Positions 14,037-57,532 of a DNA stretch of 64,000 nt are shown here, one piece after another (the stretch's first letter is position 1; the number at the start of each line of letters is the position of its first letter). The notes below the pieces were generated by a model. It did no database searches. It worked only from the letters and a program-made list of their open reading frames with translations, and was not told the origin of the DNA. This DNA comes from Candidatus Omnitrophota bacterium. Lineage in GTDB: Bacteria; Omnitrophota; Gorgyraeia; Duberdicusellales; 4484-171. The position numbers and the translations under genes were made by a program. The DNA is taken from assembly GCA_024231025.1 (NCBI GenBank), contig JAAEQW010000312.1:3238-67237 (forward strand), in the 5' to 3' direction.

Positions 14037-14038
14037 TT

Positions 14039-42107: not shown

Positions 42108-42162
42108 AACTACCTCCTAAAATTACAATCTAAAGTCGCTTAAGAATCACACAGCAATAATC

Positions 42163-42268: not shown

Positions 42269-42370
42269 TTGTTTCTTATATCCCTATCTTTTTCGCCACC
42301 TTATTTATACCATTAAATCAACTTATAATCAAGTTGCGTAATCGGTCAAAAACTCTTATTTCATAAGAGA

Positions 42371-43522: not shown

Positions 43523-43574
43523 AATACTCCTTTCCTAAAACCACGTTACCTTTGGGGTTTGGTAACGGGGTTAA

Positions 43575-44332: not shown

Positions 44333-44473
44333 TACAAGATACAAGTTACAAGATACCCGCCTGCCGGCGGGCAGGCAAACAAATTACAAATTTCAATATT
44401 CAATTACCAAACCGCTTGGTTATTTGAATTTGGTTATTGGTCATTGTTTGGTTATTGTGTCTTGTGTCTTGGT
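44333..44473. repeat. intergenic repeat family R2, copy c (inverted relative to copy b, carries the GC hairpin insertion)
   Basis: Reverse complement matches 42163-42268 nearly base for base, plus inserted CCCGCCTGCCGGCGGGCAGGC hairpin segment. Confidence 0.8.
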
Positions 44474-44490: not shown

Positions 44491-46281
44491 TCACTGCATA
44501 TTATTATTTTTCAGTATTGCTACTCCAAATTCATTACTCGTAAATGGAAACGGTCCGATTACTTTTTCGGATGAATAATTTTTCATTATCCACTTAAAAA
44601 GATCCGTTCCATAGTCAAGACCAAAACGAGACGCCCCATGTTCAGATGTAATGCGCTGAACAATAACAACGTAGTCAGCACTAGATTTGATAAAATCTCC
44701 AATAACATCTTTTTCATCAACAATCGAAAAAAGTGCAGGCGTAAACGACACATGTCGCATGGGATTCATGCGCTTGGAAAGATAATTTATTCCTGCACCT
44801 TCTGGAACAACTACCACTGTAGCATCTCTTGGTGTATTTTTCAATAAATATACTATCGCACTTAGCGTGCGAAAATTAAGCATATCTTCCTGTACCGTAA
44901 CAACATTATCGCCATCGCGCATAACCAAATTTCTACTTAAATATAAACTATGCGATACTCTCCACCAGGAAAGCGCACTCATCGCACAGATAAAAATCAG
45001 CACGAACGAAAAAAATCTTCTAGGAACATCAGGGAAATACCGCTTTAAAATAACATCAAAACCCTTAAAGAAAAATATATAATAAGCCGCCAAGGAAATC
45101 GGCACTAAGTAAAATCCATAATGATGTGCGGTAATATGGAAAATAACTCGAATTAACAAAGCTAGTGACACCAAGCACAACGCGAATAACACCATCCACT
45201 TCGGATGGTTTAGGCGAAAAATCCCGATCAGAGAAACAACTGCACCAATAATCAAAAAGATCTGCATTGGTAAAAACTGAAAGCTTCTCACCGCAATAAC
45301 GCCCATTACCTGCTCAATAACAACAAAACCTATTAAAACTAACGGTAAAAGAAAATAGAATGCCTTTCGCCCACAAGAAAAAAAAGGCGTAATCCAGCAA
45401 GTAAATAATGCCAACGCTATAAATACTATATAGAAAATAAACGATTGGGCTATGTTAGCGCAACTATTTTTGAAATCCGTCAAACCCATTATTTCAGCCA
45501 CAAACGAACTATTTTTTGTAGCAAGAATATGATCGATGATCGCCTCTTTAAATCCGCTAAAACTACCGGTAAAAATCATAAATACCGAATAACCCACTAA
45601 AGCAAAAATTATTGGCGCAAACAGAATAAAAACGATTTTCCACTCTTTTCTATTCTTGATAGCATATACCAACCCTGAAATTAAAAAAGCTCCCCAAACC
45701 AATAGCGGCAAAAGAATACGGCAGGAAAAAGCAAAAAACATAAAAATGGCCCACGCAAAAAGATAATTTTTTCTTTGAGTTAATAAGAACTTTAAGAAAA
45801 AATATAGCGCATAAATGGTAAATACGATAAAGGTAGTTGAGGCAAAACTATACGGTAATATAAAATTAAAGATGCCGTGGTAACAATATTGCCCGAAAGC
45901 AAAAACAAAGAGAAAATTAACTACAAGAACCGTTGAGACAACCCTATCCAGAAACAATCGTGATATCCTATAAAGAGCTACCGAAAAAGCCAACGTTAAA
46001 ATAATCCCATAAAAAACAAAAACCGCCAAATGATTGCCAAGTAAACCTACAAATGCCGCCAAAAGATACGGCGGCAGAATACCATATTCATATAAGATGT
46101 CACGGTACAAAACCGAACCATTAAGTATTTTTGTTGCTATTAGTGGATCACGGAAGGTATCAACTAAAATATTACCCCATCGCGAGAAAGAAACCGAAAA
46201 AAGATAAATAAAAGACTGCAAAATTATAATCGGCGGCAATATTCTGGGACTTACTTTAACCTCTTTACTGAAAAAACTCAT
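44491..46281 (-). CDS. polytopic membrane protein, putative GT-C-fold glycosyltransferase (ArnT/PMT/oligosaccharyltransferase-like architecture)
   Basis: 596 aa, about 12 predicted TM helices, soluble ~150 aa C-terminal domain; first gene-side neighbour of the sugar cluster. Confidence 0.4.
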   Translation of the reverse strand: MSFFSKEVKVSPRILPPIIILQSFIYLFSVSFSRWGNILVDTFRDPLIATKILNGSVLYRDILYEYGILPPYLLAAFVGLLGNHLAVFVFYGIILTLAFSVALYRISRLFLDRVVSTVLVVNFLFVFAFGQYCYHGIFNFILPYSFASTTFIVFTIYALYFFLKFLLTQRKNYLFAWAIFMFFAFSCRILLPLLVWGAFLISGLVYAIKNRKEWKIVFILFAPIIFALVGYSVFMIFTGSFSGFKEAIIDHILATKNSSFVAEIMGLTDFKNSCANIAQSFIFYIVFIALALFTCWITPFFSCGRKAFYFLLPLVLIGFVVIEQVMGVIAVRSFQFLPMQIFLIIGAVVSLIGIFRLNHPKWMVLFALCLVSLALLIRVIFHITAHHYGFYLVPISLAAYYIFFFKGFDVILKRYFPDVPRRFFSFVLIFICAMSALSWWRVSHSLYLSRNLVMRDGDNVVTVQEDMLNFRTLSAIVYLLKNTPRDATVVVVPEGAGINYLSKRMNPMRHVSFTPALFSIVDEKDVIGDFIKSSADYVVIVQRITSEHGASRFGLDYGTDLFKWIMKNYSSEKVIGPFPFTSNEFGVAILKNNNMQ

Positions 46282-47288
46282 AAAACATCATTAACGCATT
46301 CGTCCTGATTGTAAAAAATAATTTGGCTGCCTAAATTTTCAAATCGAAACGGCACATACAAAAGAGGTTTCAATTTTTCTTTTATTTTTTCACGCAGTTC
46401 GGGTTTTGAGAAAATCAGCATAAATCCTCCACCTCCGGCACCAAGCAGTTTCCCCCCCAATGCCCCGGCACTCAACGCGGTACTATACGCCTGGTCAACA
46501 TCAGAATTAGTAATTTTTTGCGTTAAGGTGCGTTTTATTTTCCAGTTTTCATCAAGAAGCTTTCCAAATTCATCAAGGCTCGTGGCGTCATCGGCTAAAG
46601 CATTAATAGCGTGTTCGGTCATTTGCATCAGGCGCTTAAGCGAGCTGGTGTTATTAGGAATATTCTCGATCTGTTCTTTCGCCAAAACAGATGCCCGGCG
46701 CGGAAAGCCAACAAAAAACAACATTAAATGCTTTTGCAGTTCAGCCAATTTATTAGCATTCATAATCAGCGGCTCCACTTCAAAACCTTGTTGTTTATTA
46801 AACGTTACCTTATTAAAACCGCCAAAAGAAGCAATTGTTTGATCTTGAGAGCCAACACTTTCGCCAATCAAATTCTGCTCAACGTGTATCGCGTCTTTTG
46901 CAAGTTGACGGCGAGTAATCATTTTGCCCCGCAAAGCATAAAGCGCTTGCAAAAGGCCAACTGAAAATGACGAACTCGAACCGAGCCCGCTCATTGCCGG
47001 TAAATCGGCATTATGCTGCACCTCTACTCCGCGATCAATTTTTAGAAATTTTAAACATTCTCGCACAGAAGGATGTTTTATTTGATCAATCGTTTCAGTT
47101 TCTTCGCGCACGCTATAACGAATTCTAAATTTATAATCAAAAAAAGGAGGTAAATAGCGGCAAGTGATATATCCGTACTTATCAATTGAAGTAGTTAGCA
47201 CAACACCTCCGTGCTCATTGTACCAATCGGGATAATCGGTACCACCGCCAAAAAATGACACTCTAAAAGGGGTTCTAACAATAATCAT
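46278..47288 (-). CDS. GHMP-family sugar kinase (D-glycero-D-manno-heptose 7-phosphate kinase HddA-like)
   Basis: 336 aa, N-terminus IVRTPFRVSFFGGGTDYPDW and GHMP ATP-binding loop PAMSGLGSSSSF. Confidence 0.65.
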   Translation of the reverse strand: MIIVRTPFRVSFFGGGTDYPDWYNEHGGVVLTTSIDKYGYITCRYLPPFFDYKFRIRYSVREETETIDQIKHPSVRECLKFLKIDRGVEVQHNADLPAMSGLGSSSSFSVGLLQALYALRGKMITRRQLAKDAIHVEQNLIGESVGSQDQTIASFGGFNKVTFNKQQGFEVEPLIMNANKLAELQKHLMLFFVGFPRRASVLAKEQIENIPNNTSSLKRLMQMTEHAINALADDATSLDEFGKLLDENWKIKRTLTQKITNSDVDQAYSTALSAGALGGKLLGAGGGGFMLIFSKPELREKIKEKLKPLLYVPFRFENLGSQIIFYNQDECVNDVL

Positions 47289-47529
47289 ACATCTTCTCCT
47301 GATATAGATTTATTAAAAATAACTAATAGCTAAAAACGAAAAACTTAAAACCATATCTCAAAACTTAAAATTTCTCCGAAAATTCTTGAAATCCATCAAG
47401 ACCTTAACCGTTTTTAACTTTACGCTATGGTTTTACGGTTTACGCTCTCAGTTTCACGTTTTATTACTTAATTGCAAGAAACATCCGGCAAAAAAAGTAA
47501 AAACACTTTTTTACTTCTTATCTCTGTCC

Positions 47530-48927
47530 TCAACGTTTATTACTAATTTTGCGATACTTTTTAGGTAACTTAAAAATCTTATTCATTATATAGTAATTAT
47601 AGAGAATCTGTTTAATTTTTTTGTAAAATTTATTCGGCTTACTATTTTTTATTATAAATAAGCCAAGGTTGTAAAGCGGCCCCTTAAGTTTAGAGACCAA
47701 GCAACCCAAAAGAAAAATATTATAGCGAATGTCCTTTTCTTTCTCACTAAAACAACTTAAAGTTGAACGCCTAACGCATCCGGTCATATCATCGTTATAG
47801 TTTGATTTAATGCAGCCGTGTTTAATTGAATAATCATAAAGAGCAGTACCTTTCATCGGCACTGTAGTTGAAAAGTTTGAATAAGTAACTTTGGCCTGCT
47901 TGCTCATCTTTATTGTGTTTAAGTCATCTTCTAAGGTTGACTCCGGCGCAGCAAGCATATAATTTACCCAGGTATTTATTCCATAACTCTGTATCTTTCG
48001 TAAGGTCTCTACAATATTAATCTTACGCATTCGCCTTCCTAATACTTTCTCGCGTATGCGCTCTGAAACACTGTCAACCGAAAGATGCACCGAATAACAC
48101 CCAGCCTGCTTTAATAAGTTAAGAAGTTCATCGTCTACCGTATCCAAACGCAAAAAGCAATTAAATGGCAGGTTGATACGTTTTGCGTATTTTTGGCTGA
48201 ATTCCACAAACCATGAATCAGCCTTCATCGTAAAAAGATCGTCGCCAAACTTAATAAAAGTTGTTCGATAATTATTTTTTACTGACTCGATCTCCCGAAT
48301 AAGATTCTCAACCGGAAACCTGCGCACAATCGCCCCTTTACCTTTATAAAGATCATGGTAGTAATTATTACAGCAGTAAGAACACGTAAAAGGACAGCCC
48401 CTAGTTGCATAAAAAGTTTTCTTTGGTGTGTCTTTTAAAAAAGAATTAGATAAAACCAACTCTCGATCTGGACTAGGTAAAGTTGCCAAATCATCAATCA
48501 ATGGACGCACAGAGTTAGAAGCATTTTTTGTAATTAAGTTGGCAATATCATCAAATGGTTGGTTATTAATTACTCTTTGCAAGAAATCGCTAAACGCGCC
48601 TTCTCCTTCACCAACGCAATAAGCATCAACTCCCGATTCAGAAAAAGTCCAAGGGGAAAACGTCGGATGAGGACCACCCATAATCGATATAAAACTATTG
48701 CTTTCAATCGCTTTTTTATGAGCAGCAACAATATCCGAAAACCCCTGTATATTCACCGAATAAGCAACCACATCAGGTTTAATACGGGCAGCCTCTTTTG
48801 AAAGATCAGACGAATCTAGTGAGCAGAAAAATGTCTCACAATTAACGTTCTTGGCAACCGCCGATAAATAAGAAATCGCGATATGATCGGCAAAATCAAG
48901 TTGGGCAATACAAAATAATACTTTCAT
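47530..48927 (-). CDS. cobalamin-binding (class B) radical SAM enzyme, likely methyltransferase
   Basis: 465 aa, N-terminal B12-binding-like domain, radical SAM cluster motif ATRGCPFTCSYCCN. Confidence 0.75.
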   Translation of the reverse strand: MKVLFCIAQLDFADHIAISYLSAVAKNVNCETFFCSLDSSDLSKEAARIKPDVVAYSVNIQGFSDIVAAHKKAIESNSFISIMGGPHPTFSPWTFSESGVDAYCVGEGEGAFSDFLQRVINNQPFDDIANLITKNASNSVRPLIDDLATLPSPDRELVLSNSFLKDTPKKTFYATRGCPFTCSYCCNNYYHDLYKGKGAIVRRFPVENLIREIESVKNNYRTTFIKFGDDLFTMKADSWFVEFSQKYAKRINLPFNCFLRLDTVDDELLNLLKQAGCYSVHLSVDSVSERIREKVLGRRMRKINIVETLRKIQSYGINTWVNYMLAAPESTLEDDLNTIKMSKQAKVTYSNFSTTVPMKGTALYDYSIKHGCIKSNYNDDMTGCVRRSTLSCFSEKEKDIRYNIFLLGCLVSKLKGPLYNLGLFIIKNSKPNKFYKKIKQILYNYYIMNKIFKLPKKYRKISNKR

Positions 48928-48929
48928 TA

Positions 48930-49646
48930 TTAAAACTTAAGAATTTTGTCTAAAAAAGTAGAGGGCAAATGAAAAAACTCTTCAATTACGATTGAGAGTT
49001 CATTAAAGCCATTTTTGATGATACTTCGGCAACTCTTTCCGCCAATACGCGCGGGCTCATCTCCGCCAATTTCTGCTATCTTTAAACCATACGTAATTGC
49101 ACGAATATATGTTCGCGTTTCAACCGGACGACTTATAATCTTAATGTCAAGACGACTGTGTATATCTTTGCGAAAAGCACGATATATTCCCAAAAGATCG
49201 GTGCATTGCGCCTTAAACAGTGCCCGCACCAGCGCGCTAAACATCCAATTGCCAAAGCCGCTAATCAGAGTGTCGTCTTCACTTTTTGCCCCATCTTTAT
49301 ACCTTGAACAAACCACCATATCGTAGCCCTCTTTCATTTTAGCAATTAGCTGAGGGATTTTTTCCGGCAGGCAATTTCCATCGGGAGTGAAAAGTATAGT
49401 CACATCGCTAGTCACCGCCGCTAATCCTTCTTTATACCCGGCCATAACCCCTTTGCCCTTTTGAATTGTTACCTGATAACCTAAACTTTGAGCATACTCA
49501 ATACTGCCATCGGTTGAAGCACCATCAATAAAAATTATTTCATCCAACCACTCTTTTTTTATCCGCGGCAAAATCACCCTTAAGGCTTCTATTTCATTAA
49601 ACGATAAGATCACCAATGAAAATGTCATAACCTGCTCCGGTACCAT
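48930..49646 (-). CDS. GT2-family glycosyltransferase (dolichol/polyprenol-phosphate sugar synthase-like)
   Basis: 238 aa, GT-A N-terminus LVILSFNEIEALRVILPRI...IDGASTDGS, DxD-type region. Confidence 0.7.
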   Translation of the reverse strand: MVPEQVMTFSLVILSFNEIEALRVILPRIKKEWLDEIIFIDGASTDGSIEYAQSLGYQVTIQKGKGVMAGYKEGLAAVTSDVTILFTPDGNCLPEKIPQLIAKMKEGYDMVVCSRYKDGAKSEDDTLISGFGNWMFSALVRALFKAQCTDLLGIYRAFRKDIHSRLDIKIISRPVETRTYIRAITYGLKIAEIGGDEPARIGGKSCRSIIKNGFNELSIVIEEFFHLPSTFLDKILKF

Positions 49647-50581
49647 TCAATTGTCTTGGCAATTCCATCTTTAAGCGAAGTTTTTGCTTTAAAACCTAGC
49701 TTCTCTGCTTTTGATGTATCGATCAATCTTTTTGAAATCATCGTCGGCTTATCTTTATTAAAAACAATATTTGCTTTGAAACCTTCGACTTCTACAATAA
49801 TATCTAACGCCTGCCTTATTGAAACCGCCGTGGCAGTTGCAATATTTATCGGATCAAAACAGTCAATCTTCTCCATCGCGATAAGCGCACCATCAATGAA
49901 ATCATCAATAAAAATAAGGTCTTTTATGTCGCTGCCATCGCCCCACACCTCAACCGGATCGTGACGTTCAATAACTTTTCGCATCAGTGCCGGCAAGACA
50001 TGTGAGGTTTCCCACGCAAAATCATCAAACGGACCATAAATATTCGCCGGGCGTAAAACAACAACTTTCATTGGATTTTTAATTTTCTCAGCGTACATTC
50101 TGCACAAAACTTCACTAAACTGTTTCATCCACGCAACGCAATAATATTTTTCAAACACATCGCCGAAAACCATCTCTTCTTCTTTAACCGGATGCTCCAG
50201 CGCCGGATAAACAGTATTGCTGCTTATCCACAAAAATTTCTTAACACCCGCCTGATAAGCGCCGTCAAGCAATAGTGTGTTCATAATAATATTTGGAGTA
50301 ACATGCACCAGCGGAGTTTTTGCCATTACCCCCGCACCGGAAGTATTTGCCGCACACATAAAAACATAATCAACACCAGCGGTAACTCGTGCGCAATCAT
50401 CGCTTTTTGTTAGATCACAATTAACAACCTCGATCGCGGCATCGTGTATTTGCAAATCTCGATTGTGCCGAGTCACACGAACACGAGCACCACAATCAAT
50501 TAAACGCTTGGTTAAATTTGTACCAACAAACCCCGCTCCACCGGCAACTAATACTTTTTTATCTTTAAACATCTCCACCAT
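49625..50581 (-). CDS. NAD(P)-dependent epimerase/dehydratase family protein (sugar-nucleotide 4-reductase/epimerase)
   Basis: 318 aa, Rossmann KVLVAGGAGFVGTNL, SDR YxxxK region. Confidence 0.7.
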   Translation of the reverse strand: MVEMFKDKKVLVAGGAGFVGTNLTKRLIDCGARVRVTRHNRDLQIHDAAIEVVNCDLTKSDDCARVTAGVDYVFMCAANTSGAGVMAKTPLVHVTPNIIMNTLLLDGAYQAGVKKFLWISSNTVYPALEHPVKEEEMVFGDVFEKYYCVAWMKQFSEVLCRMYAEKIKNPMKVVVLRPANIYGPFDDFAWETSHVLPALMRKVIERHDPVEVWGDGSDIKDLIFIDDFIDGALIAMEKIDCFDPINIATATAVSIRQALDIIVEVEGFKANIVFNKDKPTMISKRLIDTSKAEKLGFKAKTSLKDGIAKTIEWYRSRL

Positions 50582-52050: not shown

Positions 52051-52052
52051 TA

Positions 52053-52814
52053 TTACTCAACAATAAAATAAGATACTCGTGAAGCATATAAGCAACGCTT
52101 CAGAGAAATATTGTTCAATCCGAAAACTTCCATTAATGCTTTCGTTTCACCGGGAGAATCATGGTCATTAAGCTCATCAAAACCAATAACACTACCTTTA
52201 ACCAAGCGCGGCTTTATTGCCTCAAGGCAAGCCTTAGTTGGCTCATATAAATCAAAATCAAAATAGGCCAAAGCAACGATTGTTTCAGGATATTCTTTTA
52301 GATAATCAACAATTCCGCCAATCGCATCACCAACAACAAAATCATACTTCTTAATGTGACTTAAGGGATTGTCACCCTCTTGGCAATCCATAATTTGAGT
52401 TAAATACTCAAGATAATTATCGCTAACTCCAACGTTACCGGCTTTAATCATCTCTGAATTACCATCTTCTTTGGCAACGCCAGGAAACCCTTTAAATGTG
52501 TCGAAGCCAATAATTTTTTTATGTCGGTTATATGGCTCATAAATGGCCCGCATTGCTGCAAACAAAGACATATTTTGCCCCCAACGAGTACCGAAATCCA
52601 TAACTACACCTTGCACGTCCACAGCTTGACGATACAAAAAGTCCATAAATAAAATGCGTGACAAGACCTTTGAATTAAGAAATAACCCAAGATTTGGCAT
52701 TATTGCATCATCCGGTAATGGGCTTTTTTTGAAAAGTTCTACAAATTTTTGCCTTACTGTATTTTCGTGTTCACTCGCGTAATTCATTCCGCCATAAGTA
52801 ACCTGCTGTGCCAT
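52053..52814 (-). CDS. TylF/MycF-family SAM-dependent sugar O-methyltransferase
   Basis: 253 aa, motifs GVVMDFGTRWGQ and GFDTFKGFP characteristic of macrocin-O-methyltransferase-like enzymes. Confidence 0.65.
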   Translation of the reverse strand: MAQQVTYGGMNYASEHENTVRQKFVELFKKSPLPDDAIMPNLGLFLNSKVLSRILFMDFLYRQAVDVQGVVMDFGTRWGQNMSLFAAMRAIYEPYNRHKKIIGFDTFKGFPGVAKEDGNSEMIKAGNVGVSDNYLEYLTQIMDCQEGDNPLSHIKKYDFVVGDAIGGIVDYLKEYPETIVALAYFDFDLYEPTKACLEAIKPRLVKGSVIGFDELNDHDSPGETKALMEVFGLNNISLKRCLYASRVSYFIVE

Positions 52815-52824
52815 TGTTCCTCCC

Positions 52825-53748
52825 TTATTTAAAAAAATTATTCGCTTCTTCTTTTATGCTTTCAAAGCCAAGACCGAAATTATCTCTAATAATTTCACGC
52901 CCGCCATACTTATAACAACTTTCATACCCCGCTCTTGCGTTTAAGCCCAATCTTTTTACGGAAATTTTTATATCACAATCGTTAAACAACTCACACACCG
53001 CACTGCCCATCCCTCCGGCAAGAAAATGCTCCTCAAGAGTAATTATTTTTTCAACTCCGTTAATTGCCTCAATAAACGCCTCTCGATTAATTGGTATCTG
53101 AAAAAGATCAATAACGCCATAGTCGCTAGCGGCAATTTCGCAAGCACTATGCACCATTGCCCCAGTTGCAACAATCATTTTGCGCCCTTCTTTAATTTTA
53201 TTTAATCCACTTGAAAAATCAGCTCCCGCTGAATAAACATCATCATGGAAATCCTTATCTAGACGTATATAATTTGTTACGCTGGAATTAGCAGCAATAC
53301 TAACCAAAGAAGCGGCCATGATGTTGTCGGTTGTATTAAGTATATTAATCCCTGGAAAACTGCGCATTATCGCAACATCTTCGATCAAATGATGAGTTGG
53401 GCCATCGCTATGATAACCTAATCCAACCCCCATACCAACAATCGTTATTGGAATTTCATTAATACAGCTATTAACCCTAATCTGCTCAAGACAGCGCAAA
53501 GTAATAAACGGTGCTATCGCATAACAAAAAACTTTCTTACCTTCTTTAGCAAGCCCTGATGCAATAAGAATTGCGTTTTGCTCGGCAATACCAACATTAA
53601 CAAACTGCATAGGTAAATCACGGCGAAATTTATCAAGTGCCGGAGCGCTCATATCGGCCGAAACAATGATGACGTCTCGATCGACTCTTGCTAATTCATA
53701 TACTCGATCAAAAAATACATCGCGTTGTGTTTTATTGGCCATCTTCAT
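52825..53748 (-). CDS. transketolase, C-terminal (pyrimidine-binding) subunit of a split transketolase
   Basis: 307 aa, Pyr plus C-terminal domains (GIAEQNAILIASGLA, ITLEEHFLAGGMGSAV). Confidence 0.8.
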   Translation of the reverse strand: MKMANKTQRDVFFDRVYELARVDRDVIIVSADMSAPALDKFRRDLPMQFVNVGIAEQNAILIASGLAKEGKKVFCYAIAPFITLRCLEQIRVNSCINEIPITIVGMGVGLGYHSDGPTHHLIEDVAIMRSFPGINILNTTDNIMAASLVSIAANSSVTNYIRLDKDFHDDVYSAGADFSSGLNKIKEGRKMIVATGAMVHSACEIAASDYGVIDLFQIPINREAFIEAINGVEKIITLEEHFLAGGMGSAVCELFNDCDIKISVKRLGLNARAGYESCYKYGGREIIRDNFGLGFESIKEEANNFFK

Positions 53749-54640
53749 ACCTCCTCTTTAAGTCGGCAATACATTGGGTAGCGACTTTATTGCCAGGAGC
53801 ACAGCCATGCCATAGCGGATCGTAACACAAACTTTTAACCCCCTTACCCTTAACTGTATCGGCAATAATTACCGTCGGTTTAGCAGAACTATGCGAGCGA
53901 AGCGGTTCAATCGCTGCTAAAATTTCTTCAAAACAATGGCCGTTAATGCGAATGACGCCGAATCCAAATGATTTCCACTTATCTTCCATCGGCTCAAGCG
54001 CAACCAAATCTTCCGTAAAATCAGTAACACACAAGAAGTTTCGATCAACTATCGTAATAAGATTATTAAGATTATTGTGACTGGCAAACATTGCGGTTTC
54101 CCAAATTGAACCCTCATAACACTCACCATCACCTAAAATAGCAAACACATTGTGCAACTCTCTATTCATTTTGGCACTTAAAGCCATGCCCGCAGCTACA
54201 CCATAGCCCTGACCCAACGAACCAACAGTAAGTTCCACCCCAGGCACACTTTTTTGCAAATGTACCGCGAGCTTACCGTCAAGCTTGGTAAAGCCCTTTA
54301 AGTCCGCCTTATCAAAAAACCCAAGATCAGCTAAAATCGTATAAAGCGCAGGACTCGCTTGCCCCTTGCTTAATACTAGCCGATCTCGATTAAAAGAGTC
54401 CGGGCATTTTGCATCAAAGCGCATAAGATCCGCATAATAAAGCGCAACTAAAATGTCAACGCACGAAAGGCAAGACGTAACATGCCCCTTACCGGCGTTA
54501 ATGCACATCTCAAGCATTGCTTTACGGATTTCAAAAGACTTAGCGTAAAGACGACTGTTTTTCTTTTCTTTTCGGTTAAAAAGGCCCTTTAAATTTATTT
54601 TCATAAGTGTAAAAATCCTCTCCCGATAAATCGGTTTCAT
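53732..54640 (-). CDS. transketolase, N-terminal (TPP-binding) subunit of a split transketolase
   Basis: 302 aa (start may be the internal Met near 54604), GKGHVTSCLS and GDGECYEGSIWE TPP-binding motifs. Confidence 0.8.
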   Translation of the reverse strand: MKPIYRERIFTLMKINLKGLFNRKEKKNSRLYAKSFEIRKAMLEMCINAGKGHVTSCLSCVDILVALYYADLMRFDAKCPDSFNRDRLVLSKGQASPALYTILADLGFFDKADLKGFTKLDGKLAVHLQKSVPGVELTVGSLGQGYGVAAGMALSAKMNRELHNVFAILGDGECYEGSIWETAMFASHNNLNNLITIVDRNFLCVTDFTEDLVALEPMEDKWKSFGFGVIRINGHCFEEILAAIEPLRSHSSAKPTVIIADTVKGKGVKSLCYDPLWHGCAPGNKVATQCIADLKRRYEDGQ

Positions 54641-55610
54641 CTATTGCCAATTTTTCTTCGATAGCGCGAATAATATTAACCGCGTTAGGATAAAAACGAT
54701 CCTCCAACGGACGAGCGCACGGACAAGGCGAAAAAGCAAAACCAATTCGCTTAACCGGACTTTTCAAATTATCAAAAGACTTTTCACTAATTACCGCGGC
54801 CAGCTCAGCACCAAAACCGCAATGAACCCAATCGTTATCGGCAACAATGCAATGACCCGTTTTATTTACTGAATCGATGAGTGTTTGTTCGTCTAACGGA
54901 GTTAAGGTAATTGGATCAACTACTTCAACTTCAATGCCTCGTTTTTGTAAAATTTCTGCCGCTTTTATGGCTTCAACATTCATCCATGAAGTCGCGATAA
55001 CGCTAATGTCTTTGCCACAACGCAGGACCTTTGCTTTCCCTAAAGACGATTGATGATCATTAATTGGACCGCATATATCATAAAGCCAGCGATGTTCAAA
55101 AATAATAACCGGACTATCATCACGAATCGCCGCAATCAATGTATGTTTTGCATCGTTTGGCGTTGAGGGCATCGCTACCTTTAGCCCCGGAATATGGGCA
55201 AAACACGAATGCATAGATTTGCTATGCTGAAAAGCCTGCCCCCAGCCTCTGCCAATAATTGCTCGTATAACCATCGGTACTTTTAAGGTACCATTAGTCG
55301 CGTATCGATAGCTTGAAACCATGTTTGCCAACTGATTCATTGCAAGAAGCAAAAAATCAACCCGCATATGAGTGTGAATTGGACGCAATCCACACAAAGC
55401 CGCGCCCAATCCAAAGCCAGTCATCGCATCCTCCGATAAAGGCGTGCTAAAGCAGCGCTTTGGCCCAAACTTATCAAGTATTCCTTTTGTGCTACCGAAA
55501 ATGTTTTTATGGTCGGCAACATCAATACCATAAGTAAAAACCGAAGGATCGCGTTCCATCTCGCTAAACAATGCCTCATTTATTGCTTCGCGATAAGTTA
55601 ACTCTCTCAC
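54576..55610 (-). CDS. 2-oxoacid dehydrogenase E1 component beta-subunit homolog (TPP enzyme, transketolase-like Pyr/C domains)
   Basis: 344 aa, E1-beta-like N-terminus MRELTYREAINEALFSEMERDP...GIDVA. Confidence 0.8.
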   Translation of the reverse strand: MRELTYREAINEALFSEMERDPSVFTYGIDVADHKNIFGSTKGILDKFGPKRCFSTPLSEDAMTGFGLGAALCGLRPIHTHMRVDFLLLAMNQLANMVSSYRYATNGTLKVPMVIRAIIGRGWGQAFQHSKSMHSCFAHIPGLKVAMPSTPNDAKHTLIAAIRDDSPVIIFEHRWLYDICGPINDHQSSLGKAKVLRCGKDISVIATSWMNVEAIKAAEILQKRGIEVEVVDPITLTPLDEQTLIDSVNKTGHCIVADNDWVHCGFGAELAAVISEKSFDNLKSPVKRIGFAFSPCPCARPLEDRFYPNAVNIIRAIEEKLAIDETDLSGEDFYTYENKFKGPF

Positions 55611-56539
55611 TATACCACTTCCTTTAGCAAAATGTCATCGCTGGGAAATGGACTTTGCTTTGACTTTTTAATTGATTCCTCCACCTGAATATCGATTTCT
55701 TTTTCGATCAGTTCTGGCGCAGTTATTTTTTTTCTTTGCAACAATATTGGATCTCGCTTCTGCCAACTTTCGAAATCTTCGCGCTTTCGATATCCGGCAT
55801 CGAAATCTTCATTTACACCAACGTGCTCAAGATAGCGATAGTATTTTAAATGAAGAAAACACGGCAACTGCTTTTCATTAGAAAGCTTAATTGCCTCTAG
55901 TGTTAATTTATAAATAACTTCAGCATCGGTAGAATCACTTGATAAAACAACGCAATTAAATTGCGAAACAATATTGGTAATTTTATCATAACCGCAGCGA
56001 CTAGCACTCGGAGTATGGACAGCAAAACCGTTGTCTTCGCAAACAAAAAGAATTGGTAATTTCATAAGGCAGGCAACATTTAGGCTCTCCCAGAATACCC
56101 CTTCATCAATTGCACCATCACCAAAAAACACTGCTGTTTTTTTATTACTATTAGCATACTTATTAGCAAATTCAGCACCGACCGCAACCGGAATAATACT
56201 TGCAACAATTGCCGAAGTCCCCATAACCCCTTTAGACGGCGCACAAAGATGCATTGAACCGCCCTTGCCTTGCAACAAAGCTGATCCTCTGCCATATATT
56301 TCAGCAAAAAAATCATCGCTATTGCCGGTTTTAGCCAAATAAAGAGCGTGCGAACGATAAGTGCCGAACACCTGAGCATTATCGCCTAAAGCAAGGCACA
56401 CACCCGCTGAGATTGCCTCTGCCCCCATCGACATATGCATTGGCGTTTTCATAGCATCATCACCGTAGTCATCGATGATCCTCTGTTCACAACGCCGAAT
56501 TAAATAAAGTTTTTTATAAAGAAGGGTGTTTACGTCCAT
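55610..56539 (-). CDS. 2-oxoacid dehydrogenase E1 component alpha-subunit homolog (TPP-binding)
   Basis: 309 aa, TPP motif GDGAIDEGVFWESLN; no E2/E3 genes nearby. Confidence 0.8.
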   Translation of the reverse strand: MDVNTLLYKKLYLIRRCEQRIIDDYGDDAMKTPMHMSMGAEAISAGVCLALGDNAQVFGTYRSHALYLAKTGNSDDFFAEIYGRGSALLQGKGGSMHLCAPSKGVMGTSAIVASIIPVAVGAEFANKYANSNKKTAVFFGDGAIDEGVFWESLNVACLMKLPILFVCEDNGFAVHTPSASRCGYDKITNIVSQFNCVVLSSDSTDAEVIYKLTLEAIKLSNEKQLPCFLHLKYYRYLEHVGVNEDFDAGYRKREDFESWQKRDPILLQRKKITAPELIEKEIDIQVEESIKKSKQSPFPSDDILLKEVV

Positions 56540-56542
56540 AAA

Positions 56543-57532
56543 CTATTTAACAATGGTTACTGCCTTCCAAGGTGATACTTCTAGTTCCTTTCGCCAAAAT
56601 TGGAGCATGTCTTCGGCAGTTTTCTCGGGAGAAATCTGAGGGCTCCAGCCTGTAATGCTGGTAAATTTGTCAATGCATGGGATTTGTGAAGTAACATCAC
56701 TTGGCCTTAGCAAATTAGGATCAACCTTGATCTCGCACTTTACTTTAGCATGGGCCAATAACATATCTAAAACTTCGCCAACTTTCATAGTTCTGTTGCC
56801 ACCAATATTATAAACATCTCCTGCCGTACACTTATTAACCAAAAGCCAATAGGCCTTTACCGCGTCTCTAACGTCGCAAATCGTTCTTACTGAATCTAGA
56901 TTGCCAACAGAAATAACCGGATCCTTTAATTTTAGCTCTGAGGCAGCAATTTGTTTGGCAAAAAATGATGCAAAAAATACATCACCCCTGCGCGGTCCGG
57001 TATGCGTAAACATTCTAGTTCTAATTGTTTTTAATTTATGAGTTAGCCAATACTGCAAAGCAATCATGTCCTCGCCCACTTTACTTACTGCATACGGTGA
57101 TGCCGGACGAAATGGACAATCTTCAGTTATTGGCACGTTTTCCTTTGCTACCTGGCCGTACACTTCCGAAGATGAACACACATGAATGATCGGATCAATT
57201 CCGTTGATGCGCACAGCCTCTAAGAGGTTTGTTGTGCCGATAACATTAGTCCAAAGGGTTTGCGTCGGTGCGTTAAAACTACTTAGCACATAGCTTTGTG
57301 CGGCCAAATGAAAAATTACATCAGGTTTGATCGCATCAATTTGACGAATAAGCGAACCCAAATCACTTAAATCGGCATCAAAAAGATTAATTTTATCATA
57401 TACCTGCGATAAATTTTCACGATTACTGCGCCAACGACAAAGCCCAAAAATCTCATGATCACCTAATGACAGCAAATACTCTGCCAAATGGCTCCCAACA
57501 AATCCAGTTACACCGGTTATCAGAATTTTCAT
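56543..57532 (-). CDS. NDP-sugar 4,6-dehydratase (GDP-mannose/GDP-heptose 4,6-dehydratase Gmd/DmhA-like)
   Basis: 329 aa, Rossmann ILITGVTGFVGSHL, NVIGTTNLLEAVR, and Gmd-like FTHTGPRRGDVF..SFFAKQI segment (compare NHESPRRGETFVTRKI). Confidence 0.65.
   Translation of the reverse strand: MKILITGVTGFVGSHLAEYLLSLGDHEIFGLCRWRSNRENLSQVYDKINLFDADLSDLGSLIRQIDAIKPDVIFHLAAQSYVLSSFNAPTQTLWTNVIGTTNLLEAVRINGIDPIIHVCSSSEVYGQVAKENVPITEDCPFRPASPYAVSKVGEDMIALQYWLTHKLKTIRTRMFTHTGPRRGDVFFASFFAKQIAASELKLKDPVISVGNLDSVRTICDVRDAVKAYWLLVNKCTAGDVYNIGGNRTMKVGEVLDMLLAHAKVKCEIKVDPNLLRPSDVTSQIPCIDKFTSITGWSPQISPEKTAEDMLQFWRKELEVSPWKAVTIVK

What the first reader, a model, noticed from the sequence alone, without database searches (positions are those of the whole stretch)
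44491..57532. Unusual 13-kb sugar-modification cluster with two TPP-dependent C2-transfer modules and a B12-radical-SAM enzyme, wedged inside a dap/lys operon
Twelve co-directional genes sit in one cluster. They encode:
- a GT-C-like polytopic membrane protein, an HddA-like GHMP kinase, a cobalamin radical SAM enzyme and a GT2;
- two SDR epimerase/reductases, an RmlC-like 3,5-epimerase and a TylF-type O-methyltransferase;
- a split transketolase (N and C subunits) and E1-alpha/E1-beta homologs with no E2/E3;
- a Gmd/DmhA-like NDP-sugar 4,6-dehydratase.

From established knowledge, dehydratase, 3,5-epimerase, 4-reductase and O-methyltransferase is the logic of 6-deoxyhexose/6-deoxyheptose pathways such as Campylobacter capsule deoxyheptoses. 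E1 alpha/beta homologs (for example AviB1/AviB2 in avilamycin) and transketolase-like enzymes are used to graft two-carbon branches onto sugars. A B12-radical-SAM enzyme suggests C-methylation at an unactivated carbon.

Combining both TPP modules with the radical SAM enzyme in one locus is not a pathway I can name. The inference is a heavily modified glycan: a branched and/or C-methylated, O-methylated deoxy-heptose or deoxy-hexose made for lipid or protein glycosylation.

The cluster separates dapL-dapB from dapA-dapF-lysA, with an R2 repeat at its left edge (44333-44473). Its right edge is translationally coupled to dapA, so it is not a fresh insertion.
Basis: partly seen in the sequence, partly recalled or inferred. 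Interest (0 to 1): 0.8.

Follow-up and report, generated by a model that had tools for sequence, protein, structure and literature searches.

The report
Conserved branched-heptose sugar cassette, variable glycan locus
The 13 genes are real and probably build an undescribed modified seven-carbon surface sugar, but the gene set recurs across many phyla of uncultured anaerobes and here fills a variable glycan slot between dapA and dapB in Omnitrophota genomes.

Summary
There are 13 co-directional minus-strand genes (not 12) at 44491-57532, and every predicted domain was confirmed. The nearest solved structures for the dehydratase and the epimerase are Campylobacter GDP-heptose enzymes. [quoted passage not shown]

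The cluster is not unique. A core of SDR, B12-radical-SAM, RmlC-like, SDR and GHMP genes, plus a dehydratase, is conserved at 50-79% identity in 36 species-level genomes of about ten phyla. Only one is cultured (Trichlorobacter thiogenes). The core always comes with an E1 alpha/beta module, a split-transketolase/O-methyltransferase module, or both.

No E2/E3 lies in the window, and both TPP pairs score below housekeeping thresholds. This fits known or proposed acetyl and hydroxyacetyl sugar branching.

The radical SAM role is unresolved. Its nearest structure is the diol dehydratase AprD4, followed by cobalamin methylases.

The dap position is a conserved hypervariable slot in Omnitrophota: dapA, variable glycan genes, GT-C, dapB.

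The window lacks a sugar-1-phosphate nucleotidyltransferase. I found no publication describing this cassette. Verdict: an uncharacterised variant of nucleotide-sugar tailoring.

The parts
56543..57532 (-). NDP-sugar 4,6-dehydratase, DmhA/Gmd-like (called DH46 here). Its start overlaps the dapA stop by 4 nt.
   Evidence: PF16363 at 242 bits. Best PDB hit is 7us5, a GDP-D-glycero-D-manno-heptose 4,6-dehydratase, at E 2e-79. The SSSE and YAVSK motifs are visible in the translation. Homologs at 47-65% identity lie in most related loci.
55610..56539 (-). E1 alpha-type ThDP subunit (alpha-keto acid dehydrogenase-2 type), candidate acetyl-branching enzyme
   Evidence: PF00676 at 155 bits. TIGR03182 scores 224, below its 394 cutoff. 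The GDG...N ThDP motif starts at residue 140. Homologs at 51-61% identity sit in 18 E1-only cassettes. No E2/E3 lies in the window.
54576..55610 (-). E1 beta-type subunit (GTG start)
   Evidence: Transket_pyr at 118 bits and Transketolase_C at 111 bits. PRK09212 scores 298.5, below its 321 cutoff. Homologs reach 60-75% identity in related cassettes.
53732..54640 (-). Split transketolase, N-terminal (PP-domain) subunit. The listed start overlaps the E1 beta gene by 65 nt, so the true start is probably an internal Met.
   Evidence: PF00456 at 115.6 bits. PRK05899 scores 260, below its 488 cutoff. The GDG...DRN motif is present in the translation. Identity is 68-71% to L001, L012 and L020.
52825..53748 (-). 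Split transketolase, C-terminal (Pyr plus C domain) subunit
   Evidence: Transket_pyr at 86 bits and Transketolase_C at 36 bits. It is always adjacent to the N-terminal subunit in related loci.
52053..52814 (-). CalS11/TylF-type nucleotide-sugar O-methyltransferase
   Evidence: PDB 4gf5/3tos (CalS11, TDP-rhamnose 3'-O-methyltransferase) at E 2e-59. The TylF Pfam model reaches only E 0.004. It occurs together with the transketolase pair in every related locus where both can be assessed.
51067..52050 (-). Extended SDR 'SDR_B', the best-conserved core protein, with an atypical active site (PGWAK where YxxxK is expected)
   Evidence: PF01370 at 160 bits. Alignments to PDB SDRs place Pro or Gly at the catalytic Tyr position. 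The sequence 'PMDxFPGWAKRMAE' is conserved in 35 family members. Identity is 59-76% across related loci. An SDR gene lies next to the radical SAM gene for 24 of 40 radical SAM genes.
50565..51122 (-). RmlC-like cupin C3/C5 epimerase. The true start is probably the internal Met near 51074.
   Evidence: PF00908 at 160 bits. TIGR01221 scores 147.5, below its 155.75 cutoff. The top PDB hits are GDP-4-keto-heptose 3,5-epimerases 8dco, 8dcl and 8db5 at about E 2e-39.
49625..50581 (-). Extended SDR 'SDR_A', GDP-fucose-synthase-like, candidate C4 reductase
   Evidence: PF01370 at 149 bits. GDPFucSynFcl scores 165 bits. PDB GDP-L-fucose synthases match at E 1.5e-32. The invariant residues are Y146...W151-x-K153, which is not the canonical spacing.
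48930..49646 (-). Short GT2, candidate polyprenyl-phosphate sugar synthase
   Evidence: PF00535 at 69 bits. Best NCBIfam models are AglJ (86 bits), dolichyl-phosphate hexose transferase, ArnC and PpgS, all below cutoff. An ortholog sits at the same position in Omnitrophota locus L005 (61% identity).
47530..48927 (-). B12-binding-domain radical SAM enzyme, the signature gene of the conserved cassette
   Evidence: PF02310 at 50.5 bits and PF04055 at 65.8 bits. CPFTCSYC lies at residue 178 and is invariant in all 40 family members examined. No NCBIfam model scores above 80 bits. More than 120 homologs share 59-67% identity across phyla. The AF2 model has pLDDT 81. Its top fold matches are AprD4, MgmA, TsrM, CysS and TokK.
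47289..47529 (-). 242-nt intergenic gap with an A/U-rich hairpin followed by a U-run just after the radical SAM stop. It may mark a transcription-unit boundary.
   Evidence: Sequence and fold (z-score -1.7, weak). No significant Rfam match (E 0.37).
46278..47288 (-). GHMP sugar kinase, HddA-like
   Evidence: GHMP_kinases_N and _C domains. Best NCBIfam model is HddA at 134 bits, far below its 600 cutoff. In at least 21 related loci it is followed by an HddC-like guanylyltransferase.
44491..46281 (-). GT-C fold membrane glycosyltransferase (GT39/ArnT-like), the conserved anchor next to dapB in Omnitrophota
   Evidence: PMT_2 reaches only E 0.0035. It has 83 homologs, mostly Omnitrophota, many carrying PF13231. 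The AF2 model has pLDDT 88 and pTM 0.90. The top 25 Foldseek PDB hits are all GT-C enzymes (STT3, AglB, PglB, DPY19, ArnT, AftA, ALG9). D41 in the first loop is invariant. Orthologs lie immediately upstream of dapB in L043, L044 and L045.
44334..44473 (-). Its inverted partner lies at about 42140-42272 (+).
   Evidence: Exact 26-nt and 21-nt matches occur only at these two places, against 0 expected. The alignment covers about 125 nt.
57529..58407 (-). dapA, the upstream boundary of the variable slot
   Evidence: DHDPS at 338 bits. The same backbone occurs in L045.
42371..44291 (-). dapB plus an LL-diaminopimelate aminotransferase, the downstream boundary of the slot
   Evidence: DapB_N and DapB_C domains. 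TIGR03540 scores 500 bits, below its 593 cutoff. Synteny is conserved in L043-L045.
14039..14632 (-). GmhB-like heptose-1,7-bisphosphate phosphatase, 30 kb away. It may supply the pathway.
   Evidence: PRK08942 scores 175.2 against a cutoff of 178. Homologs are embedded in cassettes L009 and L034.

Best explanation
**What it is.** The 13 genes form a nucleotide-sugar tailoring and delivery cassette for a cell-surface glycan. It sits in a hypervariable glycan locus between dapA and dapB.

**Most likely route**
1. [quoted passage not shown] A guanylyltransferase encoded outside the window is needed as well.
2. A DmhA-like enzyme performs 4,6-dehydration, giving a 4-keto-6-deoxy intermediate.
3. 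An RmlC-like cupin epimerises the intermediate.
4. ThDP enzymes use its ketone as an electrophile. The E1 alpha/beta pair would add an acetyl unit from pyruvate. The split transketolase would add a hydroxyacetyl unit.
5. Fucose-synthase-like SDRs, a CalS11-type O-methyltransferase and a B12-domain radical SAM enzyme tailor the product. The radical SAM step is either C-methylation or an AprD4-like radical dehydration.
6. The short GT2 loads the finished sugar onto polyprenyl phosphate, and the GT-C enzyme transfers it to an extracytoplasmic acceptor.

**Shown:** the gene content, the family assignments, the conservation of the cassette, the GT-C fold, and the synteny of the slot.

**Inferred:** the substrate, the order of steps, the branching chemistry, the radical SAM reaction and the acceptor.
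For: **Family assignments:**

**Heptose line**
- The dehydratase is closest to 7us5, a GDP-heptose 4,6-dehydratase (270 bits, against about 130 bits for Gmd enzymes).
- The epimerase is closest to GDP-4-keto-heptose epimerases.
- The kinase's best model is HddA.
- In related cassettes the next gene is HddC-like (202-214 bits).
- L009 and L034 carry GmhA and GmhB inside the cassette. In L009, GmhB scores 187, above its 178 cutoff.

**Cassette conservation**
- 36 genome loci and more than 120 radical SAM homologs at 59-67% identity.
- Conserved gene order.

**ThDP modules behave as sugar-pathway parts**
- No E2/E3 lies in 64 kb.
- Scores are below housekeeping cutoffs.
- ThDP motifs are intact.
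- The E1 pair travels with a methyltransferase-like protein and a short-chain reductase in 16 of 18 E1-only loci.
- The transketolase pair travels with an aldo-keto reductase and the CalS11-like methyltransferase.
- This mirrors AviB1/B2 and Pau11/12 with the Pau7 ketoreductase (PMC4753412) and the alpha-KADH2 and split-transketolase precedents (PMC12247030).

**Delivery**
- The GT2 resembles AglJ, Dol-P-hexose transferase and ArnC.
- The GT-C fold is confirmed.
- GT-C homologs sit beside other sugar cassettes.

**Slot:** the argH-lysA-dapF-dapA-[variable]-GT-C-dapB-dapL-...-panC-uvrA backbone is conserved in L043-L045.
Against: - No NTP_transferase lies in the cluster or anywhere in the window, nor in Omnitrophota loci L005, L007, L008 and L011. 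Activation therefore depends on an unseen gene.
- No GmhA lies in the window.
- The kinase and guanylyltransferase scores are far below the HddA and HddC equivalog cutoffs, and one guanylyltransferase scores better as mannose-1-P guanylyltransferase. A hexose precursor is not excluded.
- SDR_B lacks the catalytic Tyr and SDR_A has odd motif spacing, so the reductase roles are uncertain.
- The window lacks the dedicated ketoreductases seen next to the ThDP modules in other loci.
- Ketone branching by a split transketolase has never been shown in vitro (PMC12247030).
- No flippase was identified.
- Nothing here is biochemical.
Confidence: 0.65

Rival explanations
1. The logic is the same but the precursor is a hexose. 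GDP-mannose, or another GDP-hexose salvaged by the GHMP kinase, is dehydrated to GDP-4-keto-6-deoxymannose and then branched and methylated. The product would be a branched 6-deoxyhexose of the yersiniose or paulomycose type, not a heptose.
For: - The dehydratase also matches the GDP-6-deoxy-D-lyxo-4-hexulose reductase Rmd (227 bits) and Gmd enzymes.
- The SDRs are closest to GDP-L-fucose synthases.
- The L020 nucleotidyltransferase scores higher as mannose-1-P guanylyltransferase (156.5 against 129).
- The kinase also matches fucokinase (97 bits).
- The O-methyltransferase homolog CalS11 acts on a 6-deoxyhexose.
- No GmhA lies in the window.
Against: - The best dehydratase and epimerase matches are the heptose-specific Campylobacter enzymes.
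- GmhA and GmhB are embedded in two cassettes.
- HddC is the best model for the L001 and L026 transferases.
- A GmhB-like gene lies in the window.
Confidence: 0.2
2. The B12-domain radical SAM enzyme is not a C-methyltransferase. It is an AprD4-like radical 1,2-diol dehydratase, or another rearranging enzyme, and the adjacent SDR_B completes a deoxygenation. The product would then be an extra-deoxy sugar, not a C-methyl sugar.
For: - AprD4 is the top hit by sequence (6fd2, E 7e-14) and by fold (TM 0.64-0.66, E 1e-16).
- AprD4 acts on a sugar diol.
- The radical SAM gene is adjacent to an SDR gene for 24 of 40 radical SAM genes, which recalls the AprD4/AprD3 dehydratase-reductase pairing (my recollection of the apramycin pathway, not checked here).
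Against: - Identity to AprD4 is only about 15%.
- The cobalamin methylases MgmA, TsrM, CysS and TokK match almost as well.
- The Pfam B12-binding domain passes its cutoff (50.5 against 32.1).
- NCBIfam AprD4 scores 67 against a cutoff of 500, similar to the scores for PhpK, HpnJ and ladderane-type enzymes.
- SDR_B lacks the catalytic Tyr expected of a simple ketoreductase.
Confidence: 0.35
3. The cluster is a mixed metabolic operon. The E1 alpha/beta pair and the transketolase halves are housekeeping acetoin or pyruvate dehydrogenase and pentose-phosphate enzymes that merely sit next to sugar genes.
For: Both pairs belong to the same superfamilies as the housekeeping enzymes. E1 beta scores 298.5, close to the 321 cutoff of a PDH E1 beta subfamily model. 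Split transketolases serve as primary enzymes in some prokaryotes (general knowledge).
Against: - No E2/E3, lipoyl or Pyr_redox protein lies in 64 kb.
- All four proteins fall below their NCBIfam cutoffs.
- Orthologs at 50-75% identity are embedded in the same sugar cassette in 33 related loci of distant phyla, flanked by the dehydratase and SDR genes.
- Some cassettes carry two E1 pairs (L003) or two transketolase pairs (L001).
Confidence: 0.03
4. The cassette makes the sugar moiety of a diffusible secondary metabolite, such as a nucleoside or aminoglycoside-like antibiotic, rather than a surface glycan.
For: All characterised E1-type and proposed transketolase-type sugar-branching enzymes come from antibiotic gene clusters (PMC12247030, PMC4753412). 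AprD4 and CalS11 are antibiotic-pathway enzymes.
Against: - In the window and in L005 the cassette feeds a GT2 plus GT-C pair, which is typical of extracytoplasmic glycoconjugate modification.
- In T. thiogenes the cassette is followed by GT2 and GT4-GT2-TPR glycosyltransferases and FkbM methyltransferases, as in polysaccharide loci.
- No PKS, NRPS or aglycone genes were seen in any locus.
- The position is a hypervariable locus, like O-antigen and capsule loci.
Confidence: 0.07

Closest known systems
Campylobacter jejuni capsular GDP-heptose modification pathways (GmhA/HddA/GmhB/HddC, C4,6-dehydratase, C3/C5 epimerases, C4 reductases; PMC10680097)
   Same: The nearest solved homologs of the dehydratase (7us5) and the epimerase (8dco, 8dcl, 8db5) belong to these pathways. 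The kinase is HddA-like. Related cassettes carry HddC-, GmhA- and GmhB-like genes. The SDRs are fucose-synthase-like, as the C4 reductases are.
   Different: The Campylobacter pathways have no ThDP enzymes and no radical SAM enzyme. The SDRs here have non-canonical active-site motifs. All scores fall below equivalog cutoffs. The window lacks HddC and GmhA. The hosts are uncultured anaerobes of unrelated phyla.
alpha-Keto acid dehydrogenase-2 type sugar C-branching enzymes (AviB1/AviB2, Pau11/Pau12, KbDH-alpha/beta, aldgamycin enzymes; PMC12247030, PMC4753412)
   Same: It is a stand-alone E1 alpha/beta pair with no E2/E3, encoded beside a 4,6-dehydratase that makes a keto sugar. In sister cassettes a dedicated ketoreductase and a methyltransferase-like protein follow, matching the acetyl-branch-then-reduce logic of Pau7.
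   Different: The known examples are actinomycete antibiotic clusters acting on TDP- or NDP-deoxyhexoses. Here the setting is a probable GDP-heptose surface-glycan cassette in Gram-negative-type anaerobes, combined with a second ThDP module and a radical SAM enzyme. The activity is untested.
Split-gene transketolases proposed for hydroxyacetyl branching in miharamycin and amipurimycin biosynthesis (PMC12247030)
   Same: The N-terminal and C-terminal subunits are separate genes inside a sugar-tailoring cluster. An aldo-keto reductase and an O-methyltransferase follow in sister loci, consistent with a hydroxyacetyl branch being processed further.
   Different: The review reports that the 13 predicted branching transketolases all come from Streptomycetes and that none has been assayed. 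The ones here occur in Omnitrophota, Planctomycetota, Nitrospirota, Desulfobacterota, Elusimicrobiota and Acidobacteriota.
Class B (cobalamin-domain) radical SAM enzymes: methylases TsrM, TokK, CysS, MgmA, and the non-methylase diol dehydratase AprD4
   Same: It has an N-terminal Rossmann B12-type domain plus a radical SAM core with CxxxCxxC, and its predicted fold matches all of these.
   Different: It shares only 13-17% identity with any of them, and no NCBIfam subfamily fits (all below 80 bits). I found no description of a class B radical SAM enzyme acting in a nucleotide-sugar surface-glycan pathway. The reaction type is unknown.
Three-component polyprenyl-phosphate-sugar/GT-C glycosylation systems (GtrA/GtrB/GtrC, ArnC/ArnT, CsbB/YfhO, PpgS/Rv3779) (general knowledge)
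   Same: A small GT2 resembling Dol-P/Und-P sugar synthases lies in the same cluster as a GT-C fold enzyme with an invariant Asp in its first external loop.
   Different: No GtrA-type flippase was found. The GT2 is short (238 aa) and has no obvious C-terminal membrane anchor. The acceptor is unknown. The GT-C family is essentially restricted to Omnitrophota.
Hypervariable surface-polysaccharide loci flanked by conserved housekeeping genes (for example the O-antigen locus between galF and gnd in E. coli) (general knowledge)
   Same: The flanks are conserved (dapA on one side, GT-C-dapB-dapL on the other), while the sugar-biosynthesis content differs completely between related genomes.
   Different: The flanks are lysine-biosynthesis genes, co-directional and translationally coupled with the glycan genes. 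The conserved anchor is a GT-C transferase, not a polymerase or ligase.

Membership tests
GDP-heptose (GMH) synthesis and modification pathway, C. jejuni type | The four GMH-forming enzymes: GmhA, HddA, GmhB, HddC | tested here: not met
   In the window, only an HddA-like kinase (134 bits against a cutoff of 600) and a distant GmhB-like gene (175.2 against 178) are present. No HddC-like or GmhA-like gene lies in 64 kb. In related cassettes, HddC-like genes occur in at least 21 loci, and GmhA plus GmhB occur in L009 and L034.
GDP-heptose (GMH) synthesis and modification pathway, C. jejuni type | C4,6-dehydratase of the DmhA type | tested here: met
   Best PDB hit is 7us5 at E 2e-79 and 270 bits, roughly double the score against Gmd enzymes. 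This is sequence-level evidence only; substrate was not tested.
GDP-heptose (GMH) synthesis and modification pathway, C. jejuni type | Cupin C3/C5 epimerase | tested here: met
   The top PDB hits are GDP-4-keto-heptose 3- and 3,5-epimerases at E about 2e-39.
GDP-heptose (GMH) synthesis and modification pathway, C. jejuni type | SDR C4-reductase with a Ser/Tyr/Lys triad | tested here: inconclusive
   Both SDRs are fucose-synthase-like. SDR_B has PGWAK in place of YxxxK, and SDR_A has Y...WxK spacing.
alpha-KADH2 sugar C-branching enzymes (AviB1/B2 type) | E1 alpha plus E1 beta pair without E2/E3, with an intact ThDP motif, encoded with keto-sugar-forming enzymes | tested here: met
   See for the families, for GDG...N, for the absence of E2/E3, and for the adjacent dehydratase.
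alpha-KADH2 sugar C-branching enzymes (AviB1/B2 type) | Pyruvate-dependent acetyl transfer to an NDP-keto sugar | not testable with these tools
   This needs an enzyme assay.
Split-gene branching transketolases (miharamycin/amipurimycin type) | Separate N- and C-terminal subunit genes inside a sugar-tailoring cluster | tested here: met
   
Split-gene branching transketolases (miharamycin/amipurimycin type) | [quoted passage not shown] | not testable with these tools
   This has not been demonstrated even for the precedent enzymes (PMC12247030).
Class B cobalamin-dependent radical SAM methyltransferases | CxxxCxxC cluster motif plus an N-terminal B12-binding domain | tested here: met
   PF04055 and PF02310 both score above their cutoffs. 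The motif is invariant in the family. The predicted fold matches TsrM, TokK, CysS and MgmA.
Class B cobalamin-dependent radical SAM methyltransferases | Cobalamin binding and methyl transfer | tested here: inconclusive
   The nearest relative by sequence and by fold is AprD4, a diol dehydratase. As I recall, AprD4 works without cobalamin, but I did not check that here. No subfamily model fits.
TylF/CalS11 sugar O-methyltransferases | Homology to characterised NDP-sugar O-methyltransferases across the whole domain | tested here: met
   CalS11 matches at E 2e-59 over residues 14-239. The Pfam TylF model itself is sub-threshold (17 bits against 23).
GT-C glycosyltransferases | Polytopic GT-C fold with an acidic residue in the first external loop | tested here: met
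   The AF2 model has pLDDT 88. The top 25 PDB fold hits are all GT-C, with probability 1.0 and TM 0.35-0.52. D41 is invariant. A sequence profile finds no PDB relative.
Three-component Pren-P-sugar glycosylation systems (Gtr/Arn type) | Pren-P sugar synthase GT2, plus a flippase, plus a GT-C | tested here: inconclusive
   A GT2 (AglJ/ArnC-like, below cutoffs) and a GT-C are present.

The most novel reading that the evidence does not exclude
The conserved cassette makes an undescribed family of GDP-activated higher-carbon sugars (C9-C11). A 6-deoxy-4-keto-heptose receives one or two ThDP-grafted C2 branches: acetyl through the E1 alpha/beta pair and hydroxyacetyl through the split transketolase. 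A cobalamin-domain radical SAM enzyme then acts directly on the nucleotide sugar. This would be the first such enzyme in a primary surface-glycan pathway and the first branching transketolases outside Streptomycetes. In Omnitrophota the product would be one allele of a hypervariable surface-glycan locus anchored by a lineage-specific GT-C next to dapB.
Probability: 0.4. Interest if true: 0.75.

Novelty: new variant of a known kind. Interest (0 to 1): 0.6.

Why it matters
- **Reach of sugar branching.** If the inference holds, ThDP-dependent sugar C-branching is not confined to antibiotic clusters of actinomycetes. It would be a widespread part of surface-glycan synthesis in anaerobic, mostly uncultured bacteria from at least ten phyla.
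- **A new radical SAM setting.** A strongly conserved B12-domain radical SAM family (about 60-67% identity across phyla) would have a nucleotide-sugar pathway as its home.
- **A testable system.** The cassette occurs in a cultured organism, Trichlorobacter thiogenes ATCC BAA-34, and the Campylobacter enzymes can supply GDP-heptose substrates. The chemistry can therefore be tested directly.
- **A diversifying locus.** The dapA/dapB slot gives a defined place to study surface-glycan diversification in Omnitrophota, a phylum of very small and possibly host-dependent cells.

Tried and rejected
- **Exact-sequence look-ups.** Look-ups of the window's radical SAM and GT-C proteins found no contig on record. 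The rest of the 81-kb source contig could not be read, so the missing nucleotidyltransferase could not be sought there.
- **Literature.** Searches combining radical SAM with transketolase, thiamine, heptose, GDP, cobalamin, nucleotide sugar, O-antigen or Omnitrophica returned nothing relevant. Krug et al. 2024 (Angew. Chem., doi 10.1002/anie.202403535), the bioinformatic survey of branching ThDP enzymes, is not held.
- **GT-C by sequence.** A sequence profile of the GT-C family finds no PDB relative. Only the fold search worked.
- **RNA elements.** Rfam finds three tRNAs elsewhere in the window and no riboswitch in or near the cluster.
- **Promoters and terminators.** Scan counts do not exceed shuffled controls. 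The hairpin after the radical SAM gene is weak (z -1.7).
- **dap genes next to the cassette elsewhere.** None of the 40 loci fetched through the radical SAM gene has them. The link to dap appeared only when starting from dapB and GT-C homologs.
- **Recent horizontal insertion.** This is not supported by composition. GC and GC skew in the cluster resemble the flanks.
- **Housekeeping reading of the E1 and transketolase genes.** Rejected; see the rival explanations.
- **ORF-based locus classification.** The classification mislabels three loci (L016, L023, L028) because of wrong-strand ORF calls. The tblastn table was used for the counts.

Full report

Every ORF of 80 aa or more that is not nested inside a longer gene between 39.5 kb and 63 kb lies on the minus strand. 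Between dapA (57529-58407) and dapB (43575-44291) there are 13 genes.

Pfam, NCBIfam and PDB sequence searches confirm each predicted domain. In transcription order the genes are:
- a GDP-mannose-dehydratase-family enzyme (56543-57532, "DH46");
- E1 alpha (55610-56539) and E1 beta (54576-55610);
- a transketolase N-terminal subunit (53732-54640) and C-terminal subunit (52825-53748);
- a 253-aa protein with no Pfam hit at E<=0.001, which matches the TDP-rhamnose 3'-O-methyltransferase CalS11 at E 2e-59 (52053-52814);
- an extended SDR (51067-52050, "SDR_B");
- an RmlC-like cupin (50565-51122);
- a second SDR (49625-50581, "SDR_A");
- a 238-aa GT2 (48930-49646);
- a B12-binding-domain radical SAM enzyme (47530-48927);
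- a GHMP kinase (46278-47288);
- a 596-aa polytopic membrane protein (44491-46281).

For the membrane protein, the Pfam PMT_2 match is weak (E 0.0035). An AlphaFold model built on 25 homologs is confident (pLDDT 88, pTM 0.90). Its 25 best PDB fold matches are all GT-C glycosyltransferases: STT3, AglB, PglB, DPY19, ArnT, AftA and ALG9. Asp41 in the first loop is invariant.

The dapA stop and the dehydratase start overlap by 4 nt. The "R2" repeat at the left edge is real.

**2. What organism, and is the cluster unique?**

The radical SAM, GT-C and DapB proteins are 100% identical to entries from one 81-kb contig of a Candidatus Omnitrophica MAG. The cluster is not unique.

The radical SAM protein has more than 120 homologs at 59-67% identity. 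They come from Omnitrophota, Thermodesulfovibrionales, Chloroflexota, Verrucomicrobiota, Elusimicrobiota, Desulfobacterales and others. A scan of one genome per species found 36 loci. Only one belongs to a cultured organism, Trichlorobacter thiogenes ATCC BAA-34.

A tblastn search of the 13 window proteins, followed by clustering of all ORFs in these loci, shows a conserved cassette.
- **Core.** SDR_B, the radical SAM gene, the RmlC-like gene, SDR_A and the GHMP kinase, at 50-76% identity to the window. The dehydratase usually lies upstream. In at least 21 loci an NTP_transferase follows the kinase.
- **E1-only loci (18).** E1 alpha/beta is nearly always followed by a 311-aa methyltransferase-like protein and a short-chain dehydrogenase.
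- **Transketolase-only loci (10).** The split transketolase is followed by an aldo-keto reductase and the CalS11-like O-methyltransferase.
- **Loci with both modules (5, plus the window).**
- **Doubled modules.** Some cassettes carry two transketolase pairs (L001) or two E1 pairs (L003).

Having two ThDP modules plus the radical SAM enzyme is therefore a recurrent design, not an accident of this window.

**3. Precursor.**

The evidence points to a GDP-heptose.
- The dehydratase's best solved relative is the C. jejuni GDP-D-glycero-D-manno-heptose 4,6-dehydratase 7us5 (E 2e-79, 270 bits). GDP-mannose dehydratases score about 130 bits.
- The cupin's best relatives are GDP-4-keto-heptose 3- and 3,5-epimerases.
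- The kinase's best NCBIfam model is HddA.
- The nucleotidyltransferases of L001 and L026 are best matched by HddC (202 and 214 bits). The L020 enzyme matches mannose-1-P guanylyltransferase better. All are guanylyltransferase types.
- Two cassettes carry GmhA and GmhB next to the kinase. In L009, GmhA scores 215 bits and GmhB scores 187, above its 178 cutoff. L034 has both as well.
- The window has a GmhB-like gene 30 kb away (14039-14632, 175.2 against a cutoff of 178).

This matches the enzyme set described for Campylobacter capsular heptoses (PMC10680097).

There are caveats. All scores are below equivalog cutoffs. The window and the other Omnitrophota loci with this cassette lack the guanylyltransferase. 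A hexose precursor remains possible; I give it about 0.2.

**4. The ThDP modules.**

- No E2, E3, lipoyl or related protein lies anywhere in the 64 kb. The rest of the window is housekeeping: rpoB, ribosomal proteins, ligA, priA, uvrA, panC and similar genes.
- All four ThDP subunits fall below their NCBIfam cutoffs.
- Their closest relatives are the cassette-embedded orthologs in other phyla.
- The ThDP-binding motifs are intact.

Published precedent separates two chemistries.
- Stand-alone E1 alpha/beta pairs (AviB1/B2, Pau11/12, KbDH-alpha/beta) add an acetyl unit from pyruvate to a C3 or C4 keto sugar. The branch ketone is then often reduced or otherwise modified (PMC4753412, PMC12247030).
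- Split-gene transketolases have been proposed, but never shown, to add a hydroxyacetyl unit in miharamycin and amipurimycin biosynthesis. The 13 predicted examples are all from Streptomycetes (PMC12247030).

The accessory genes tied to each module in sister cassettes fit a "graft C2, reduce, methylate" logic. These are a reductase plus a methyltransferase-like protein with E1, and an aldo-keto reductase plus the O-methyltransferase with the transketolase. That logic is my inference.

The window has both ThDP modules but only the CalS11-like methyltransferase and no dedicated branch reductase.

**5. The radical SAM enzyme and the SDRs.**

The radical SAM protein has an invariant CxxxCxxC motif and a Pfam B12-binding domain that scores above its cutoff. 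No NCBIfam subfamily scores above 80 bits.

By sequence, its only PDB relatives are AprD4 (E 7e-14) and TokK. By fold (model pLDDT 81), the best match is again the sugar 1,2-diol dehydratase AprD4 (TM 0.64-0.66). The methylases MgmA, TsrM, CysS and TokK follow closely. C-methylation is therefore plausible but not established. An AprD4-like radical dehydration is a serious rival.

SDR_B is the best-conserved protein of the cassette. An SDR gene sits next to the radical SAM gene for 24 of 40 radical SAM genes. SDR_B carries a conserved PGWAK where the catalytic YxxxK should be. SDR_A has an invariant Tyr at non-canonical spacing. Their assignment as plain 4-reductases is uncertain.

**6. Delivery.**

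The GT2's best models are AglJ, dolichyl-phosphate hexose transferase, ArnC and PpgS, all below cutoff. Together with the GT-C enzyme, this suggests transfer of the sugar to polyprenyl phosphate and then to an extracytoplasmic acceptor. No flippase was identified.

The GT-C family has only 83 detectable homologs, almost all from Omnitrophota. In other lineages the cassette is joined to other glycosyltransferases. In T. thiogenes these are a GT2, a 1066-aa GT4-GT2-TPR protein and FkbM-type methyltransferases. This is what one expects of a portable nucleotide-sugar supply module.

**7. Why between dapA and dapB?**

None of the 40 loci found through the radical SAM gene has dap genes nearby. Starting instead from DapB homologs, three other Omnitrophota contigs show the same backbone. 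It runs argH-lysA-dapF-dapA, then a variable block, then a GT-C ortholog (35-42% identity). After that come dapB, the LL-DAP aminotransferase, a second variable ORF, then HPPK-panC-AspDH-uvrA-TPR-ExbBD.

The variable block differs in each contig:
- L045: GT2, LPG_synthase_TM, a sulfotransferase and a GT1.
- L043: E1 alpha/beta, four SDRs, a GHMP kinase, a nucleotidyltransferase and a DegT aminotransferase.
- L044: two B12-radical-SAM genes, another radical SAM gene, a GT9 and a methyltransferase.

The position is therefore a conserved hypervariable glycan locus anchored by the GT-C gene, and the window's cassette is one of its alleles.

Composition gives no sign of recent insertion. The cassette does look mosaic, though. 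Its transketolase and O-methyltransferase genes are closest to Planctomycetota and Nitrospirota versions (58-79% identity). They are more distant from the other Omnitrophota copy, L005 (43-60%). E1 beta, the epimerase, SDR_A, the kinase and the GT2 are closest to L005.

**8. Verdict.**

The finding is real and its biochemical reading is largely sound. It needs five corrections:
1. There are 13 genes, not 12.
2. The cassette is widespread, not singular.
3. The role of the radical SAM enzyme is open.
4. The SDRs have atypical active sites.
5. The activating nucleotidyltransferase is missing from the window.

I found no description of this cassette in the searchable literature. I class it as a new variant of a known kind: nucleotide-sugar tailoring with ThDP branching. 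Interest is 0.6.

Noticed in passing
window 44334-44473 (-) and about 42140-42272 (+); weaker copy at 29450-29620: A repeat of about 125 nt occurs as an inverted pair that brackets dapB-dapL. The copy upstream of dapB is interrupted by a GC-rich hairpin of about 30 nt (GCCTGCCCGCCGGCAGGCGGG). A degenerate third copy with a similar GC hairpin lies in the intergenic region at 29.5 kb. In L043-L045 the GT-C-dapB spacer is only 27-39 nt, so the element is an addition in this genome.
   Followed up: partly
window 40617-42107 (-): A 496-aa protein carries a Peptidase_S74 (endosialidase chaperone) domain, typical of phage tailspike or fibre proteins. It occupies a second variable position just after the aminotransferase gene. 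L043, L044 and L045 have unrelated ORFs there: a 608-aa unknown, a second PMT_2 GT-C, and a 240-aa unknown.
   Followed up: partly
window 51067-52050 (-) and its family in L001-L040: SDR_B has a conserved 'PMDxFPGWAKRMAE' segment, so the catalytic Tyr of the SDR YxxxK motif is replaced. The NAD-binding TGGTGxIG motif is kept. It is the best-conserved cassette protein (59-76% identity across phyla) and usually sits next to the radical SAM gene.
   Followed up: partly
window 12975-14632 (-): A GmhB-like heptose bisphosphate phosphatase (14039-14632) lies directly upstream of an MGDG-synthase/diglucosyl-diacylglycerol-synthase-like glycosyltransferase (12975-14036).
   Followed up: partly
L041, L042, L044, L001, L003 (related loci): Glycan clusters in Omnitrophota and other anaerobes often carry several different B12-domain radical SAM paralogs, two or three per locus. 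They sit next to GHMP kinase, nucleotidyltransferase, DegT and glycosyltransferase genes. The use of such enzymes in sugar loci seems general in these lineages.
   Followed up: no
window 16549-16649, 23783-23883, 25126-25187: A second intergenic repeat family of about 60-100 nt is present. The copies at 16.5 kb and 25.1 kb are 90% identical over the 62-nt repeat unit.
   Followed up: no
window 23973-24972 (-): Adjacent HEPN-domain and minimal nucleotidyltransferase genes look like a HEPN/MNT toxin-antitoxin pair.
   Followed up: no
window 25900-27351 (-): A fused Memo-like plus AMMECR1 protein (483 aa) lies next to a tRNA gene (27388-27460).
   Followed up: no
window 17081-18727 (-) and 40104-40586 (-): ORFs of 548 aa and 160 aa have no Pfam match at E<=0.001.
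   Followed up: no
window 47289-47529: The only sizeable gap inside the cluster (242 nt) starts with an A/U-rich hairpin followed by a U-run. GHMP-GT-C, and perhaps dapB-dapL, may therefore be transcribed separately from dapA...radical SAM. In L005 the same junction is only 78 nt.
   Followed up: partly
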